A stretch of DNA of 64,000 nt from an uncultured bacterium (GTDB lineage Bacteria; Babelota; Babeliae; Babelales; Vermiphilaceae), in NCBI GenBank assembly GCA_963701085.1, contig OY969561.1, positions 1,134,635 to 1,198,634 on the forward strand, written 5' to 3'. Positions within the stretch are counted from its first letter, which is position 1, and each line of letters begins with the position of its first letter. The position numbers are program-made. Below, one piece after another: positions 1-64,000 of this stretch.

Positions 1-3000
1 TGTCGCAGGCAGAGGCGAGCAAGCGTTTGCGGGAGTATGGCCCCAATGAAATACAAGAGACAACCGCAACATGGTTTGAAATTTTAAAAAATCAGCTCAA
101 AAATCCATTCATTCTTATTTTTATCGTTATTGCTGTTGCCTATTTTTTTACCGAGCAATATACCGAATGCATAATTTTGATCATTATTATGATGGTGAAT
201 ACGGTTATTGGCTTTTATCAAGAATATCAAAGTAGCAAGGCAATGGCGTTGCTCAAATCATATCTGCAAGCAACAATTATTGTTTATCGTGATGGCAAAG
301 ATGATCTTGTTGGCATTAATACATTAGTTCCCGGTGATAGTATTAAGCTTAATGCGGGTGATATTATTCCCGCAGATTGCCGCTTTATTGCAACGGATAA
401 TTGTGTTGCTGATGAAGCAATGCTTACTGGTGAATCATTACCAACAAAAAAAATGCACATGCTCGCCGATAAAAAAATAACAGCAGTATATGATGCATAC
501 ACCATCGGATTTGCAGGTACTGTTGTGGTTGATGGGAGTGCTACTGCCGTTGTGTTTGCAACCGGATTACATACAGAAATGGGTTCTATTGCTCAGTTAG
601 CAACGCACACAATAACCAAAAGTAATTTAGCAAAAGGCACCATGCGGCTTGCACAGATTGTTTTTGGCATGGTTGTCATCAGCCTTGTGCTTATTGTGAT
701 GGTTAACGTTATTTTTAAAACAGGACAACGTTCATTTTTTGATTTTTTGATTTTTGCAGGAGCGCTTGCAATTACGGCAGTTCCTTCAGCGCTTCCCATT
801 GTGATTACCTTTTGTTTGACCAATGGAGCAATGAGATTGCATAAGCATAAAATGATTGTAAAGCGATTGTCTTCTATTGAAGATCTTGGCAGTATTGAAG
901 TTTTTTGCACAGATAAAACAGGGACATTGACGGAAAATGTGTTGAGTGTAAAAGATGTTTATGCGGTGCATGAAGAACATACATTACTCTATGCAGCATT
1001 CACGTCGGATATGCTTTCCCGCACAAAGAAAATCATACCGAATGGTTTTGATCAAGCAATTGTGCAAGCGTTAACGGCAGAGCAAGTGCAATCATTGAAA
1101 GAGTACACTATTGTTAAAGAACTTCCCTTTACGTATGAACGTCACCGGAGTATTACGCTTGCTCAAAAAAATGATACGTATTGTTTGGTGACCAAAGGGT
1201 CTGCCGAATATATTATTCCTCTCTGTTCTTCTTTAACACAGCAAGATCTTGTTGCTGCTCATGCGTGGGTAAAAGATAATGAATTACAGGGCAACCGTGT
1301 ACTTGCGGTAGCAATAAAAAAAATAACCGGCGCGCAGCAGGTCACTGATGACATGATACATCAGTATGACACAACGTATGATACGCTGGGGTTAATTTCT
1401 TTTGCTGATCCACTTAAATCAACAGCGGAAACAGCGGTTAAAAAAGCACAAGCGCTCGGTGTGCAGATTAAAGTATTGAGTGGTGATAGTGTGTACGTAT
1501 GTTTTACGATTGCGCAGCAGTTGGGATTGGAGCACAGTATTGATAATGTTGTACTGGGCACGGATTTTGAAAAAGCGACCGAAGAACAGAAAATGTTTCT
1601 TGTGTGCAATCGTACTATTTTTGCACGCGTAACGCCGGAACAAAAGTATCAAATTATTTCATATCTTCAACGCACCTATTCCGTTGGTTACATGGGTGAT
1701 GGGATTAATGATGCACCAGCACTGAAAATTGCTCAGGTTGGTATTGCGGTCAATACTGCAGCTGGAGTTGCACGTGAGGCAGCAGAAATTATCATGCTAC
1801 AAAAAAGTTTATTGAATATTTTACTGGGGATAGAAGAGGGTAGAAAAATAATTATTAACACGCTTAAGTATATAAAAATAACTATCGCGTGTAACATAGC
1901 GCTGTTTTATGCACTCGTGTTTTCATCATTATTTATTAATTATTTACCGATGTTGCCATTACAGCTTTTGTTTTTAGATCTTATTACTGACTTTCCGTTA
2001 ATTGCCATCTCCACTGATGCGGTAAGTAAACATGAGCTGCAAAAGCCTTTGCATTATTCTATGAAAGAGATTGGTTTTGTCACATTTCTTTTTGGCTTTG
2101 TGCGTTTGCCATTCGATTTTTTAATTTTTGTTCTTTTTAAATCTAACCCTGTGTTATTACAAACGAGTTGGTTTCTTGCAAGTTCATTGTTCCAGTTTGT
2201 GCTGATATTTTCATTGCGGACAAAAATACCGTTTTGGCGAGCACCGCGTCCCTCATGGATGTTAGTGGGATTATGTTGCCTTGCTACAGCTATTGTATTG
2301 ATTTTGCCATTTATTACTTTTGGGCAAACCATTTTCTCTTTTGTGCAGCCAAGTATGGGTGATATGAGGAAAATAGCTCTTATTATTGCTGCTTATTTTA
2401 TAACGACTGAGACAGTAAAAATACTGTATTATCGTAGTCAAAATAATAAATAATGTATGTTTTAAAAGGTGGTGTTAAAAAAATGAACCACTTTTTATTT
2501 ATTATAATTCTTTATTCATTACTTGTTGCGTATCAGTGACGCGCGCAAGCGTATGTTCTTCAAATCCTAGCGTAATGAGTGTATCAATAAAATCCATTGG
2601 TTTAAGTCCAATTTCAGCTGCTTGGTGGAATAAGCATGTTGCTGGTGTGAGTCCGGGTAATGTGTTATTTTCAAGAATAACAACGCGTTCTTTTTTTGTT
2701 GGGCTTTGCGTGGCTGTTTTGGTAAAAACAGTCAATGCGTGAATATCCTTTGCATTGTAGTGTTGTAAAAGCGCGTTCCATAATGCGTTGTACAAACTCG
2801 AGTGTTGCGTGTGGTAGTGGTGCGGGTGTTTGATTTTCCCCAGCACCGGGTAAGAATTTTTCTTCAATAGAAAGTATTCCTGCAGCAGAAACCGCCTGGC
2901 TTGGTGGTAATGCACGCGGATGTTCATTACCAATAACTCCCACGGTGAGTTCCATGCCGGTAATACATTCTTCTATTAATACACAATCTTTTTCTTGTAA

Positions 3001-63000: not shown

Positions 63001-64000
63001 TTATGGAATGCCGAAACAGGTGAGAAAATAAAAGTTTTTAAAGATCCTTATCCTTTGGAATATAAAACTTGTGTAGCTTTTGATCCGTCTGGTCGGTATA
63101 TAGCTGCAGGTTACCAGAGATCTCAGAATAATTTATTTTTGTTTAGTTGTGCAACTGGTGAGCTGATAGGAGGGTTTTCAGTATTTGGGCAGGTAAGGTG
63201 TGTAGCATTCAGTCCTGATGGTAATTATCTGTTTTGTGGATGTGATCAAGGGCTTGTTGCATTTAAGATGATTAGTCAGAAAGTACTTAATTATATTGCT
63301 ACACAATTGAATATTGCACAAGCGCGTTTTTTATATCGTTTGTATCTCGCAAAAATTAATAACGTGCCGGTGATATTGGATACACAAGATCTTGATTATC
63401 AACTGTTTATAACATTGCCTGAAGATGTGCAGCGGGCGGTCAAAGCATTTCTGCCGTTTGAATTAGTATTAGATATTGCGGAAAAGGCGGTACAAGAAAA
63501 AATGAATGAGTATAAAAAATCGCTGTTTTATAGCAGTTCATATTTTTTTGGTAGAAATGAAAAAACACATGATGAAAAGAAAAAAGCGATAAAAAATGCT
63601 ATGTTAAATCTTGATAAAAATTCTGTTTCATACAAAGCGTGTGAAAGATTATTGGGTGAGTTGGAACAAGAAGAGGCGTTTATTTTAAAATAATAGGATC
63701 ATACATATGACAAAAAGATTGGTTGCAACAATAATTTTAGCGATTACGGTATTATTTTTATCGTGGTATGCGTATCAGGAATATAAAAAATCGCAAAAAG
63801 GGCCTGAAGTTTTTATTCAAGCGCAATAAAATTTTAAGATGTCTCATTTGTTTGTTATTTTTGTGATTTTTCGTACACTTGTTGCAATGTTAACAATTAT
63901 ATTCAAAAAGGACGCACAATGACGACAAAACAAATGATGTTTGCAGTGATGATTTTTATTACTATGAATAATGTTACTTTTTCTATGTTTAAAAAGAAAG

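What a model noticed while it worked through the whole genome (the two positions that open the first line are those of the whole stretch)
1..64000. About 105 proteins share a signal peptide whose cleavage site is followed by Met-Glu
Roughly a tenth of the proteins have a Sec-type signal peptide ending in a small residue, followed invariably by Met-Glu. These are mostly ankyrin, WD40 and unknown proteins, many of them species-specific. Housekeeping envelope proteins lack the motif. The sister species shows the same feature with Met-Asp. The motif marks a separate class of exported, probably host-directed proteins. It implies selection on the mature N-terminus or on a dedicated processing or sorting step. 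Example loci: 1104541-1109029 (three tandem genes), 776168-781112, and 355745-356467.
Evidence so far: - 114 of 690 ORFs with an N-terminal hydrophobic window have Met-Glu 6-26 residues after the window start. Only 10 have it in residues 61-80 (control). - Position -1 is A 41, G 26, S 19, C 16, T 7 of 114. - In the start-independent scan, 'small-X-[DE]' has X = M 116 times, and the next residue 15 times. 'small-M-X' gives E 82, D 22, N 13, Q 12. - 105 proteins remain, in 63 similarity groups (49 singletons), making 7.7% of the genome. 45 of 105 have a G006 homologue, against 819 of 1,104 overall. - Classes: 79 unknown, 10 of 34 Ank, 9 of 16 WD40, and others. - G006: D 38, N 15, E 14, Q 13, with 56 proteins carrying Met-Asp or Met-Glu. 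- The Met is in the same aligned column in 13 of 23 homolo The finding spans contig positions 1 to 1198634; this window holds only 1134635 to 1198634 of it. [...]
(Added by a program. Inside this text positions count along the whole contig: contig position 1,134,635 is position 1 of the stretch shown here. "Call 12" and the like, gene names such as g00115 and contig names such as C1 are that model's own, and its searches are not shown. The text may have been shortened before it was handed on; [...] marks where a part breaks off. The agent that wrote the report below was given it as the finding of a first reader that could run no searches.)

Follow-up and report, generated by a model that had tools for sequence, protein, structure and literature searches.

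The report
Met-Glu mark after signal peptides
In this small, apparently host-dependent bacterium about one protein in eight carries an ordinary export signal followed by methionine and usually glutamate; this seemingly undescribed mark sits on eukaryote-like and unknown proteins, not on housekeeping envelope proteins, and probably labels proteins sent on to the host.

Summary
With my own ORF set and a motif-blind signal-peptide caller, Met is the residue after the predicted cleavage site in 166 of 452 signal-peptide-like ORFs, against 2% Met overall. Glu or Asp follows in 116 of them.

- The mark acts at protein level: codon use at +2 equals genome use.
- The Met is not a start codon: an SD-like site precedes 73 of 127 signal-peptide starts but 1 of 127 internal Met codons.
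- It is not a lipobox in 15 of 16 Cys(-1) cases.
- It is not a shared cassette: 166 proteins fall into 110 similarity groups.
- Met is the best-conserved N-terminal column in homologues.

Carriers include ankyrin, WD40, C2H2 zinc-finger, HDAC-like, cPLA2-like and mostly unknown proteins. Periplasmic housekeeping proteins and hydrolases lack the mark.

All four species sampled in the genus show the rule, with Glu or Asp preferred by species. So do a neighbouring genus and one other family; seven further genomes show at most 8%.

Best reading: a post-cleavage N-terminal class mark for host-directed Sec substrates. Its reader (onward export, or survival in host cytosol) is not resolved. This is a new variant of known mature-N-terminus rules.

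The parts
21994..23160 (-). Carrier: 388-aa protein with a distant HDAC/acetylpolyamine-amidohydrolase-like fold. Signal peptide at 23107-23160, Met-Glu codons at 23101-23106 (NITG|MEKQ).
   Evidence: Coordinates and peptide. Pfam HDAC E 0.008, below cut-off. Profile against PDB gives HDAC10, E 0.009. The AlphaFold model has pLDDT 71, and the listed Foldseek PDB matches are all HDAC/APAH-type deacetylases, with TM about 0.35-0.40. Of 17 public homologues with a full signal peptide, 16 keep Met at this column.
38038..39603 (-). Carrier: 521-aa ankyrin-repeat protein. Signal peptide at 39547-39603, Met-Glu codons at 39541-39546 (TVHG|MEIP).
   Evidence: Ank_2 and Ank hits. Homologues only within the genus among 31 genomes searched: 9 of 31 including G000.
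39588..40532 (-). Carrier variant: 314-aa paralogue. Signal peptide at 40476-40532, Met-Lys codons at 40470-40475 (LTHG|MKRP).
   Evidence: The G007 homologue keeps SHG|MKRP at 54% identity. Weak Ank_2 match.
40567..40920 (-). Carrier: 117-aa unknown protein with a GTG start. Signal peptide at 40858-40920, Met-Glu codons at 40852-40857 (HNVC|METK).
   Evidence: No Pfam family. My rule-based caller missed it because -3 is Asn.
42901..43734 (-). Carrier: 277-aa ankyrin-repeat protein. Signal peptide at 43681-43734, Met-Glu codons at 43675-43680 (ALQS|MELV).
49267..50514 (-). Carrier: 415-aa beta-propeller (WD40-like) protein. Signal peptide at 50452-50514, Met-Glu codons at 50446-50451 (TTFA|MESV).
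   Evidence: All 7 full-length public homologues read [FV]A|M[ED].
50634..51935 (-). Carrier: 433-aa WD40 protein. Signal peptide at 51873-51935, Met-Glu codons at 51867-51872 (ITFT|MERV). The longest ORF runs up to 51992, but the signal peptide begins at the internal MKSY.
   Evidence: The G007 homologue reads TTFT|MEKE.
55772..56236 (-). Carrier: 154-aa unknown protein. Signal peptide at 56168-56236, Met-Asp codons at 56162-56167 (SCSG|MDYM).
   Evidence: No Pfam family.
61798..63693 (+). Carrier variant: 631-aa WD40 protein. Signal peptide at 61798-61881, Met-Ile codons at 61882-61887 (PAGA|MISQ).
   Evidence: Three G007 paralogues align here: LLHC|MEPF, PINT|MISE, and one that the alignment does not place.
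13354..17026 (+). Context: type II secretion / type IV pilus-like genes (GspF, GspG, and three further ORFs with pseudopilin-like N-termini). This is the candidate second-step exporter. Its link to the mark is inferred, not shown.
   Evidence: T2SSF E 3e-53, T2SSG E 2e-20 and N_methyl E 3e-8. N-termini. Elsewhere in the genome there are two secretin ORFs and two T2SS-E ATPases.
8493..9989 (-). Contrast class: secreted FAD/BBE oxidase with a signal peptide but no Met (ATNS|LDAE).
24562..25476 (+). Contrast class: secreted peptidase A4 with a signal peptide but no Met (VVGA|HDSF).

Best explanation
About 130-170 genes of this genome encode ordinary Sec-type pre-proteins. Their signal peptide ends in a small residue, and their mature part begins with Met, followed mostly by Glu (Asp in some sister species).

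The single signal peptidase I is inferred to cut before the Met, which would make Met-Glu/Asp the new N-terminus.

I read this dipeptide as a class mark on the mature N-terminus. It separates proteins that must leave the periplasm for the host from proteins that stay in the envelope or act outside. The marked proteins are ankyrin, WD40, zinc-finger, deacetylase-like, phospholipase-like and many orphan proteins.

The mechanism I commit to is second-step sorting. After cleavage, the Met-acidic N-terminus is recognised in the periplasm and the protein is passed to the outer-membrane export route. The only recognisable route here is the T2SS-type machinery. The recognition preference has drifted between species, from Glu to Asp.

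Shown: the motif, its protein-level nature, its class specificity, its conservation and its taxonomic spread.

I give the general claim (a selected, functional N-terminal mark of host-directed Sec substrates) about 0.8. I give the sorting mechanism about 0.4.
For: - Enrichment: M follows the last (-3,-1) site in 166 of 452 SP-like ORFs, against 2% background. There is a positional ME peak. The -1/-3 rule is met in 126 and 128 of 136 sites without being imposed.
- Real signal peptides translated from their own start: an SD-like 4-mer precedes 73 of 127 SP starts, 1 of 127 internal Met codons and 137 of 2000 random Met codons.
- Protein-level constraint: the +2 codons are GAA75 GAG19 GAT19 GAC3, matching genome usage, and neighbouring third positions are unconstrained.
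- Independent origins: 110 similarity groups, 91 of them singletons. Signal peptides of different groups are 13.8% identical, about the same as to unmarked signal peptides at 12.4%.
- Class specificity: 26 of 41 Ank ORFs and 9 of 11 WD40 ORFs have SP plus Met, with one clear Ank exception. Pfam on 70 carriers gave 10 Ank, 5 WD40/propeller, zf-C2H2, PLA2_B, MTase, HIT, Pyr_redox, Tmk and 49 with nothing. In the 153 unmarked SP-like ORFs examined, the envelope families found were FKBP, ZnuA, TolB-like, S41, thioredoxin, AhpC, PBPs, MreC and an OM channel. Besides these there were GH1/GH3, C11/A4 peptidases and collagen-like proteins.
- Purifying selection: the Met is identical in 20 of 26 same-genus pairs, against 12-48% in the flanks. 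It is kept in 16 of 17 and 7 of 7 public homologues.
- A duplicated thymidylate kinase gained SP+MEN, while its neighbour kept a plain N-terminus.
- Species-specific +2 preference without any change in overall E/D use: G000 94:22 and G007 19:3, against G006 3:12 and G010 1:5. Fisher p = 4e-6 for G000 against G006. This points to a shared reader.
- Same route otherwise: SP length, hydrophobicity and n-charge are alike in both classes.
- One S26 gene, and T2SS parts are present.
- A published Dependentiae genome paper reports a T2SS as the only secretion system detected, and signal peptides on most ankyrin proteins (PMC4378268, passages).
Against: - No cleavage site has been measured. It rests on the -3/-1 rule and my own simple caller, with no SignalP and no N-terminomics.
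- No reader was found, and T2SS substrates elsewhere are not known to carry linear N-terminal signals (recalled).
- The mark is not necessary for all effector-like exports. Unmarked SP proteins include a second PLA2_B, NUDIX, HAD and a PI3/4-kinase-like protein.
- The distribution in the order is patchy. M/SP-like is G016 0 of 52, G018 1 of 38, G045 2 of 32, G023 3 of 39, G030 1 of 28, G021 1 of 16 and G019 1 of 17. Yet T2SS-type genes are reported widely in such genomes, so the machinery alone does not explain the mark. These samples are only 37-140 kb each and do not prove absence.
- In Bacteroidetes the comparable Q-rule turned out not to be a sorting signal (PMC5837995, abstract).
- Paralogues and related species are not independent, so the statistics overstate the case.
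- The Pfam cut-offs differed between classes: 1e-5 for carriers and 1e-9 for the others.
Confidence: 0.4

Rival explanations
1. The mark is an N-terminus built for the host cytosol. It matters only after delivery. A protein that enters eukaryotic cytosol with a signal-peptidase-made N-terminus is judged by the N-degron pathways. Met followed by a non-hydrophobic, non-small residue is one of the few unacetylated N-termini that these pathways do not target, and it looks like a native Met-Asp/Glu-type eukaryotic N-terminus. Selection would then keep Met-Glu/Asp only on proteins that work inside the host cell.
For: - The unmarked class typically begins with I, K, D, L, Q, E, V, Y, N or R. Most of these are destabilising in the Arg/N-degron pathway.
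- Carriers have cytosolic or nuclear-type domains: Ank, WD40, zf-C2H2, HDAC-like and cPLA2-like.
- At +2, small residues that would allow Met removal are the most depleted class: 20 of 187, or 11%, against 38% background. Bulky hydrophobic residues stand at 25 of 187, or 13%, against 27%.
- A search listing shows that the N-terminal residue matters for a bacterial protein acting in host cytosol (PMC2518864, listing only).
- The listeriolysin precedent is recalled, not seen.
Against: - Val and other tolerated residues are not used.
- Asn and Gln at +2 are not enriched over background: 13 of 187, about 7%, against 9.7%. The resemblance to the NatB substrate set is therefore weak.
- Met-Leu/Ile carriers exist, 22 of 166.
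- The model does not predict the species-specific swing between Glu and Asp unless hosts differ.
- Acidic residues early in the mature part are generally favoured for Sec export (recalled).
- Entry into host cytosol has not been shown for any of these proteins.
Confidence: 0.3
2. The mark serves processing or stability within the bacterial envelope, like the Bacteroidetes Q-rule. Met-acidic at P1'/P2' would tune signal peptidase I cleavage, or protect the new N-terminus from periplasmic aminopeptidases, for fast-evolving and poorly folded proteins.
For: - A lineage-wide +1 rule with a stability role is known: the Q-rule (PMC5837995, abstract; PMC10653852, abstract start in the listing).
- Carriers also differ slightly just before the site. 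His at -2 occurs in 24 of 127 against 14 of 219, and Gly at -1 in 36 of 127 against 29 of 219.
Against: - Housekeeping periplasmic proteins in the same cell do without the mark.
- No modifying enzyme is evident. Of the two M24 peptidases, one is the ordinary MetAP and neither has a signal peptide.
- There is one S26 peptidase only.
- Unlike the Q-rule, this mark covers a subclass and not most substrates.
Confidence: 0.1
3. The Met is a historical relic without present function. Signal peptides were added upstream of existing genes, so the old start codon stays as residue +1.
For: - Many carriers have domains that are normally cytosolic.
- A few 'carriers' are plain N-terminal extensions of cytosolic enzymes. 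The NTP-transferase at contig 276888-277883 is one: its homologues in G019 and G021 begin at that Met.
Against: - True N-termini here rarely have Glu or Asp second: E21 and D6 of 452, with K64 most common. After the mark the figure is 116 of 187.
- The Met is far better conserved than its neighbours.
- In the secreted thymidylate kinase the ME lies three residues upstream of the position aligned with the old start, which is now His.
- Homologues of contig 814616-815467 in G012 and G016 have a signal peptide but no Met.
- The concerted Glu/Asp shift between species also argues against a relic.
Confidence: 0.07
4. It is an annotation artefact or a case of dual initiation. The proteins would really start at the Met-Glu, and the 'signal peptide' would be a translated T-rich leader, or both forms would be made.
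For: - ORF starts were set by rule.
- Gene callers started five public homologues at the Met itself, all on contigs of 1.8-4.2 kb.
Against: - An SD-like site precedes 1 of 127 internal Met codons, against 73 of 127 SP starts.
- SP lengths are tightly distributed at 21.7 +/- 3.1 residues, with Lys-rich n-regions.
- -1 is small in 93% of sites without this being imposed.
- Signal peptides are kept in homologues from other assemblies, with independent gene calls.
Confidence: 0.02

Closest known systems
Bacteroidetes Q-rule: Gln at +1 of signal peptidase I substrates, cyclised to pyroglutamate (PMC5837995 abstract; PMC10653852 listing)
   Same: Both are lineage-specific, near-invariant residues immediately after the SPase I site, seen as a statistical rule over many unrelated proteins.
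   Different: The residue here is Met followed by an acidic residue, not Gln. This rule marks a subclass (166 of 452 SP-like ORFs), whereas the Q-rule covers most substrates including housekeeping ones. No modifying enzyme is known here. The Q-rule was shown not to be a sorting signal.
ASAFAP-type motif of complex-plastid pre-proteins: Phe or Tyr at +1 after the ER signal peptide (PMC3774753, one passage)
   Same: The residue exposed by signal-peptide cleavage distinguishes proteins that must cross further membranes from those that stay.
   Different: That system is eukaryotic. The residue is aromatic and is followed by a transit peptide that is later removed. Here no extended motif follows +2.
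Plasmodium PEXEL: the mature N-terminus xE/Q/D after plasmepsin V cleavage specifies export to the host cell (PMC10653839 and bioRxiv 10.1101/2023.07.12.548774, abstract starts in the listing)
   Same: Both concern host-directed proteins of an intracellular parasite. In both, a processed N-terminus with an acidic or amide residue at position 2 acts as the export-competence mark.
   Different: PEXEL uses a different protease and a motif, RxL, on the removed side. Here cleavage is by ordinary SPase I rules and there are no charged residues before the site.
Lipoprotein +2 sorting rule and lipobox signals (recalled, not from a call)
   Same: Residues right after the processing site decide the final compartment.
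   Different: Those signals need a lipobox and a lipidated Cys. Here only 1 of 16 Cys(-1) cases is lipobox-like, although LspA is present.
Signal peptides on ankyrin-repeat proteins of Dependentiae (TM6) genomes (PMC4378268 and PMC6561590, passages)
   Same: Those are reduced genomes of protist parasites in which most ankyrin proteins carry a predicted signal peptide. In the Babela genome a T2SS is the only secretion system detected. The present genome looks like this kind of organism.
   Different: In the passages I read, neither paper mentions any rule for the residue after the cleavage site. That this genome belongs to that phylum is my inference, not a tool result.

Membership tests
Sec-type signal peptide cleaved by signal peptidase I | Positive n-region, hydrophobic h-region of about 8-15 residues, total length about 18-30 | tested here: met
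   Motif-anchored listing. Mean length is 21.7 +/- 3.1, with 1.6 K/R in the first 8 residues and a peak 8-residue hydropathy of 2.9. These figures are partly imposed by my caller. The positional ME peak is independent of it.
Sec-type signal peptide cleaved by signal peptidase I | Small uncharged residues at -1 and -3 | tested here: met
   Without imposing the rule, -1 is small in 126 of 136 sites and -3 is allowed in 128 of 136. In 516 internal M-[ED] controls the figures are 26% and 49%.
Sec-type signal peptide cleaved by signal peptidase I | Translation starts upstream of the hydrophobic segment | tested here: met
   An SD-like 4-mer precedes 73 of 127 SP starts and 1 of 127 internal Met codons.
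Sec-type signal peptide cleaved by signal peptidase I | A signal peptidase I gene is present | tested here: met
   One S26 ORF at contig 661030-662004.
Sec-type signal peptide cleaved by signal peptidase I | Cleavage observed at the predicted bond | not testable with these tools
   No proteomics was available and no SignalP was on hand.
Lipoprotein (signal peptidase II) signal | Lipobox [LVI][ASTVI][GAS]C with Cys at +1 | tested here: not met
   Only 1 of 16 carriers with Cys before the Met has a lipobox-like context. LspA exists, and 13 other ORFs have canonical lipoboxes.
Twin-arginine (Tat) signal | RR followed by hydrophobic residues in the n-region | tested here: not met
   0 of 166.
Type IV pilin / pseudopilin (class III) signal | Short leader, G|F/M, a hydrophobic stretch after the cleavage site, and Glu at +5 | tested here: not met
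   The hydrophobic segment lies before the Met. Only 1 of 166 carriers fits a pilin-like pattern after the Met, and pseudopilin ORFs are among the recognised false calls.
Bacteroidetes Q-rule | Gln at +1 in most SPase I substrates | tested here: not met
   Gln follows the last candidate site in 17 of 452 ORFs, and Met in 166.
Bacteroidetes Q-rule | A glutaminyl cyclase at the periplasmic face | not tested
   No search for glutaminyl cyclase families was run.
PEXEL-like export element | RxL before the cleaved bond and xE/Q/D after it, downstream of a signal sequence | tested here: not met
   There are no charged residues between the h-region and the site. This is by definition in my caller, but it is also visible in the unfiltered listing. 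Only the acidic second residue is shared.

The most novel reading that the evidence does not exclude
Met-Glu/Asp after the signal peptide is an anti-degron. These bacteria deliver Sec-exported proteins into eukaryotic cytosol, and they have evolved a signal-peptidase site that leaves a native-looking, N-degron-free N-terminus: Met kept, followed by an acidic residue. The proteins then escape the host's N-end-rule machinery. If so, the residue after a bacterial signal peptide would predict which secreted proteins act inside the host cell. The Glu/Asp preference would then track host lineage.
Probability: 0.3. Interest if true: 0.85.

Novelty: new variant of a known kind. Interest (0 to 1): 0.72.

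Why it matters
- The mark gives a simple, testable sequence rule: signal peptide, small residue, Met, acidic residue. The rule picks out about 130-170 candidate host-directed proteins in a genome where most of them have no recognisable family. It does the same in related genomes.
- It shows that the residues just after a signal peptidase I site can carry class information in a bacterium with only the Sec and T2SS-type routes. How such organisms choose what leaves the periplasm is an open question.
- If the host-side reading is right, it links bacterial secretion signals to eukaryotic N-degron biology.

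Tried and rejected
- Nucleotide-level motif or hidden ribosome-binding site at the internal ATG: none found.
- Shared signal-peptide cassette spread by recombination: rejected, because signal peptides of different groups are no more alike than random signal peptides.
- Second signal peptidase I as a dedicated processor: G000 has one S26 ORF. G006 has two, so copy number does not follow the mark.
- Periplasmic Met-aminopeptidase: neither of the two M24 ORFs has a signal peptide.
- Extended motif or composition bias after +2: none.
- Different signal-peptide build between the classes: none, apart from more His at -2 and more Gly at -1.
- Overall Glu/Asp usage as the cause of the species switch: rejected.
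- Naming the organism from GroEL: the best 80 loci were 60-70% identical and came from many phyla, which was uninformative.
- ESM Atlas look-up of the window protein 21994-23160: no usable hit.
As a result, Pfam covered only carriers lying in contig 1-759318 and the window (70 of 127 M-[EDNQ], 27 of 39 other M, 153 of 219 unmarked). Samples of the low genomes are small.
- The Fisher tests use a 'low' group that I defined after seeing the counts. They are descriptive only.
- Searches for a prior description found no mention of a Met rule (and passages of PMC6561590 and PMC4378268). Subscription journals and supplements were not seen.

Full report
**What was checked**

The finding is genome-wide, and the window holds only its last 64 kb. 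I therefore laid the whole contig (1,198,634 b, GC 37%) and rebuilt everything from scratch. All ORFs were taken from the first ATG/GTG/TTG after a stop (3177 of at least 60 aa). They were thinned to 1230 non-overlapping ORFs, of which 1143 have at least 80 aa. No gene caller or SignalP was available, so all signal-peptide (SP) calls below come from my own simple rules.

Three checks agree.

1. No model at all. The dipeptide ME, counted per 10-residue bin from the N-terminus, gives 9, 39, 79, 21, 12, 13, 9, 10, 15, 7, 6, 10. MD peaks more weakly, at 26 in bin 20-29.
2. Anchoring on M-[ED] after a hydrophobic window, with no demand on -1 or -3.
   - Of 136 sites, 126 have A, G, S, C or T at -1, and 128 have an allowed residue at -3.
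   - In 516 internal M-[ED] controls the figures are 26% and 49%.
3. A motif-blind caller (positive n-region, uncharged hydrophobic 8-mer, then -3/-1 sites before the first charged residue).
   - It finds 501 SP-like ORFs, 452 of them with a candidate site.
   - The residue after the last site is Met in 166. The next are I 31, D 25, E 25, L 24 and K 24. Met is 2.0% of residues overall.
   - After Met at any candidate site (187 ORFs), +2 is E94 D22 L13 N8 K8 G6 A6 I5 Q5.

Met is therefore the constant residue and Glu is the preference. Some calls are false:
- LepB's catalytic GS-ME.
- An NTP-transferase whose relatives start at that Met.
- Pseudopilins.

The caller also misses real cases such as NYS|MEPQ and NVC|METK.

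**It is a protein-level feature of real signal peptides**

- Codons at +2 are GAA75 GAG19 GAT19 GAC3. This matches the genome's 79% GAA and 86% GAT. The third positions around the site are free.
- An SD-like 4-mer lies 4-18 nt upstream of 73 of 127 SP start codons. It lies upstream of only 1 of 127 internal Met codons. The figures are 137 of 2000 for random internal Met codons and 120 of 324 for other ORF starts. Translation therefore starts at the SP and the Met is not a second start.
- SP length, peak hydropathy and n-region charge are the same in marked and unmarked classes: 21.7 against 22.0 residues, 2.92 against 2.96, and 1.6 against 1.8 K/R. His at -2 and Gly at -1 are somewhat more common in the marked class.
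- No twin-arginine motif (0 of 166) and no pilin-like pattern (1 of 166).
- Only 1 of 16 Cys(-1) cases resembles a lipobox, although LspA is present.
- G000 has one signal peptidase I gene.

**It is not a family trait or a shared cassette**

- The 166 Met(+1) ORFs cover 11.8% of the genome. They fall into 110 similarity groups, 91 of them singletons. The 127 M-[EDNQ] ORFs fall into 87 groups, 73 of them singletons.
- The last 15 residues of signal peptides from different groups are 13.8% identical. Against unmarked signal peptides the figure is 12.4%.
- Nothing is conserved beyond +2.

**Who carries it**

Pfam was run on the carriers lying in the parts of the genome I could reference: 70 of the 127 M-[EDNQ] ORFs and 27 of the 39 other Met(+1) ORFs (E <= 1e-5).
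- Among the 70: 10 ankyrin and 5 WD40/beta-propeller proteins. 49 had no family.
- Among the 27: 2 Ank, 3 WD40, PLD, M48, the false NTP-transferase, and 19 with no family.

Genome-wide family searches placed Ank_2 in 41 ORFs and WD40 in 11.
- 26 Ank ORFs have an SP followed by Met: 16 by rule and 10 by eye.
- One Ank ORF has a clear SP without Met (VNA|SETI), and 3 are unclear.
- 11 Ank ORFs have no SP. Ten of these lie in one 7-kb run of short ORFs.
- 9 WD40 ORFs have an SP followed by Met. The other 2 are SP-less fragments.

Of the 219 unmarked SP-like ORFs without further membrane segments, I examined 153 (E <= 1e-9). Of these, 46 have a family.
- Envelope and periplasm: PBPs, MreC, FKBP, ZnuA, TolB-like, S41 protease, thioredoxin, AhpC and an OM channel.
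- Degradative or surface proteins: GH1 twice, GH3, C11 and A4 peptidases, PAF-AH, and collagen-like proteins four times.
- False signal peptides: Rossmann-fold epimerases and GltX.

The converse does not hold: many secreted non-housekeeping proteins lack it too. The E-value cut-offs differed between the two classes.

**Selection**

- In 26 gap-free N-terminal alignments of G000 carriers with their best homologues in G006, G007 and G010, the Met column is identical in 20. Every other column from -12 to +13 lies between 12% and 48%. The pairs include paralogues and are not independent.
- Two window families were taken to the public protein collection.
  - The family of 21994-23160 gave 24 proteins. 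Of the 17 with a full SP, 16 have Met at that column (13 ME, 2 MK, 1 MR) and one has Ala. Five on contigs of 1.8-4.2 kb were called from the Met itself.
  - For 49267-50523, all 7 full-length homologues read [FV]A|M[ED].
- A natural experiment comes from two thymidylate kinase genes 0.8 kb apart. One starts MPQLTKGILIAIEG. The other starts with an SP followed by MENHKQLNRGILIAIEG. The ME lies three residues upstream of the position aligned with the old start, which is now His.
- Homologues of contig 814616-815467 in G012 and G016 have an SP but no Met.
- True N-termini here rarely have Glu or Asp second: 27 of 452.

Together these points reject the 'old start codon' idea as the sole cause.

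**Spread**

The table gives Met after the last candidate site, over SP-like ORFs.

| Genome | Relation to G000 | Met / SP-like | +2 after Met |
|---|---|---|---|
| G000 | own genome | 166/452 | - |
| G006 | same genus | 30/138 | D12, E3 |
| G007 | same genus | 31/83 | E19, D3 |
| G010 | same genus | 11/66 | D5, E1 |
| G012 | same family, other genus (nearest by LeuRS, 69%) | 12/55 | E5, D1 |
| G016 | same family, other genus | 0/52 | - |
| G018 | same family, other genus | 1/38 | - |
| G017 | same family, other genus | 1/12 | - |
| G045 | same family, other genus | 2/32 | - |
| G028 | other family | 15/77 | E6, Q3, D2 |
| G023 | other family | 3/39 | - |
| G030 | other family | 1/28 | - |
| G021 | other family | 1/16 | - |
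| G019 | other family | 1/17 | - |

It is patchy, or the 37-140-kb samples miss it.
- The phylum-level draw of relatives contained only genomes of one order.
- Overall Glu and Asp usage is the same in all these genomes. The Glu/Asp switch at +2 is therefore motif-specific: G000 94:22 against G006 3:12, Fisher p = 4e-6.
- Carriers are less conserved than other genes: 13 of 30 against 209 of 329 G006 ORFs have a G000 hit.

**Mechanism**

Shown: a class-specific, conserved, protein-level dipeptide at the predicted SPase I site. Inferred: cleavage there, and the fate of the proteins.

The genome has T2SS-type parts: GspF, GspG and pseudopilins in the window at 13354-17026, plus two secretins and two ATPases elsewhere. 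A paper on a comparable organism reports a T2SS as the only secretion system detected and signal peptides on most ankyrin proteins (PMC4378268, passages; see also PMC6561590).

*Sorting (about 0.4).* My preferred reading is a second-step sorting mark read in the periplasm. The mark separates two sets of Sec substrates in one cell, and its +2 preference shifts as a block between species. That is what a shared reader would produce.

*Host-side reading (about 0.3).* In eukaryotic cytosol most N-terminal residues are destabilising. Gly, Ala, Ser, Thr and Cys have their own pathway. [quoted passage not shown] Met-Glu/Asp is thus one of the few safe N-termini.
- For it: the unmarked class starts with I, K, D, L, Q, E and similar residues.
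- For it: small residues at +2 are the most depleted class, 20 of 187 against 38% expected.
- Against it: Asn and Gln are not enriched.
- Against it: Met-Leu/Ile carriers exist.
- Against it: the Glu/Asp switch is left unexplained.

*Envelope-side role (about 0.1).* A Q-rule-like stability or processing role is possible.

*Minor readings.* A neutral relic is about 0.07 and an artefact about 0.02.

**Comparison with what is known**

- The nearest parallel in bacteria is the Bacteroidetes Q-rule (PMC5837995, abstract). It covers most substrates and is not a sorting signal.
- The nearest functional parallels are eukaryotic:
  - Phe or Tyr after the signal peptide of complex-plastid proteins (PMC3774753, one passage).
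  - The processed xE/Q/D N-terminus of Plasmodium exported proteins (PMC10653839, listing).
- The lipoprotein +2 rule, the NatB substrate set and the listeriolysin N-end-rule case are recalled, not seen.
- Four searches and the passages read found no description of a Met rule. The library lacks most subscription journals, and I saw no supplements.
- That the organism is a Dependentiae-type bacterium is my inference from genome size, gene content and the shape of the relatives' taxonomy. It is not a tool result.

**Verdict**

This is a genuine, strong and apparently undescribed rule. It is a new variant of the known 'mature N-terminus' rules. Its function is open but directly testable.

Noticed in passing
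window 21994-23160 (-): This carrier and its 23 public homologues form a family with three weak but concordant signs of a histone-deacetylase/acetylpolyamine-amidohydrolase fold: Pfam E 0.008, PDB profile HDAC10 E 0.009, and listed Foldseek PDB matches that are all HDAC/APAH-type at TM about 0.35-0.40. Whether the zinc and catalytic residues are kept was not examined.
   Followed up: partly
contig 723590-724231 and 725039-725773 (outside the window): Two thymidylate kinase genes lie 0.8 kb apart. One is ordinary. The other carries a signal peptide plus Met-Glu-Asn in front of the same core. This looks like a nucleotide kinase turned into an exported protein.
   Followed up: partly
contig 355745-356467 (outside the window): An exported protein with eukaryote-type C2H2 zinc fingers (zf-H2C2_2 E 4e-35) stands behind SAT|MEKQ.
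   Followed up: no
contig 513502-520810 (outside the window): A run of ten short ankyrin ORFs on the minus strand (plus one on the plus strand) has no signal peptides. It looks like one or a few large ankyrin genes broken into pieces.
   Followed up: no
contig 912729-913289 and 539693-540343 (outside the window): Both GNAT acetyltransferase ORFs of the genome have export signals, one a canonical lipobox (LAAC|G) and one IQA|SE. Extracytoplasmic acetyltransferases are unusual. They could bear on N-terminal modification of exported proteins.
   Followed up: no
window about 21435-21625 and 60540-60690; also 6150-6420 and 29600-29860: Intergenic repeats occur here, and the first three of these four stretches are relatively GC-rich (48-51%). 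The first two stretches each gave over 100 blastn hits across the genome, in both orientations, so this is a dispersed REP- or MITE-like element family. The small ORFs that my ORF set placed on them are probably not genes.
   Followed up: partly
window 2671-4170 (-) and 4350-4976 (-): Two adjacent D-Ala-D-Ala ligase-like ORFs. The first has N- and C-terminal domains behind a 150-residue extension. The second has only the N-terminal domain.
   Followed up: no
G007:C1:101849-104297, G009:C1:1394795-1397238, G010:C1:441593-443994: The leucyl-tRNA synthetase matches in these few-contig assemblies contain 4-8 in-frame stops. This suggests indel-rich assemblies, so ORF-based counts from these genomes are underestimates.
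   Followed up: no
window 10319-11026 (+) and 25631-26518 (-): A Fic-domain protein without a signal peptide, and a PI3/PI4-kinase-like protein with an unmarked signal peptide (AFS|NDFF). Both are effector-like proteins outside the Met class.
   Followed up: no
G006:C1:288310-289134 and 976307-977140: The sister genome has two signal peptidase I genes where G000 has one. Several other genomes of the order also have two, some of them adjacent.
   Followed up: no
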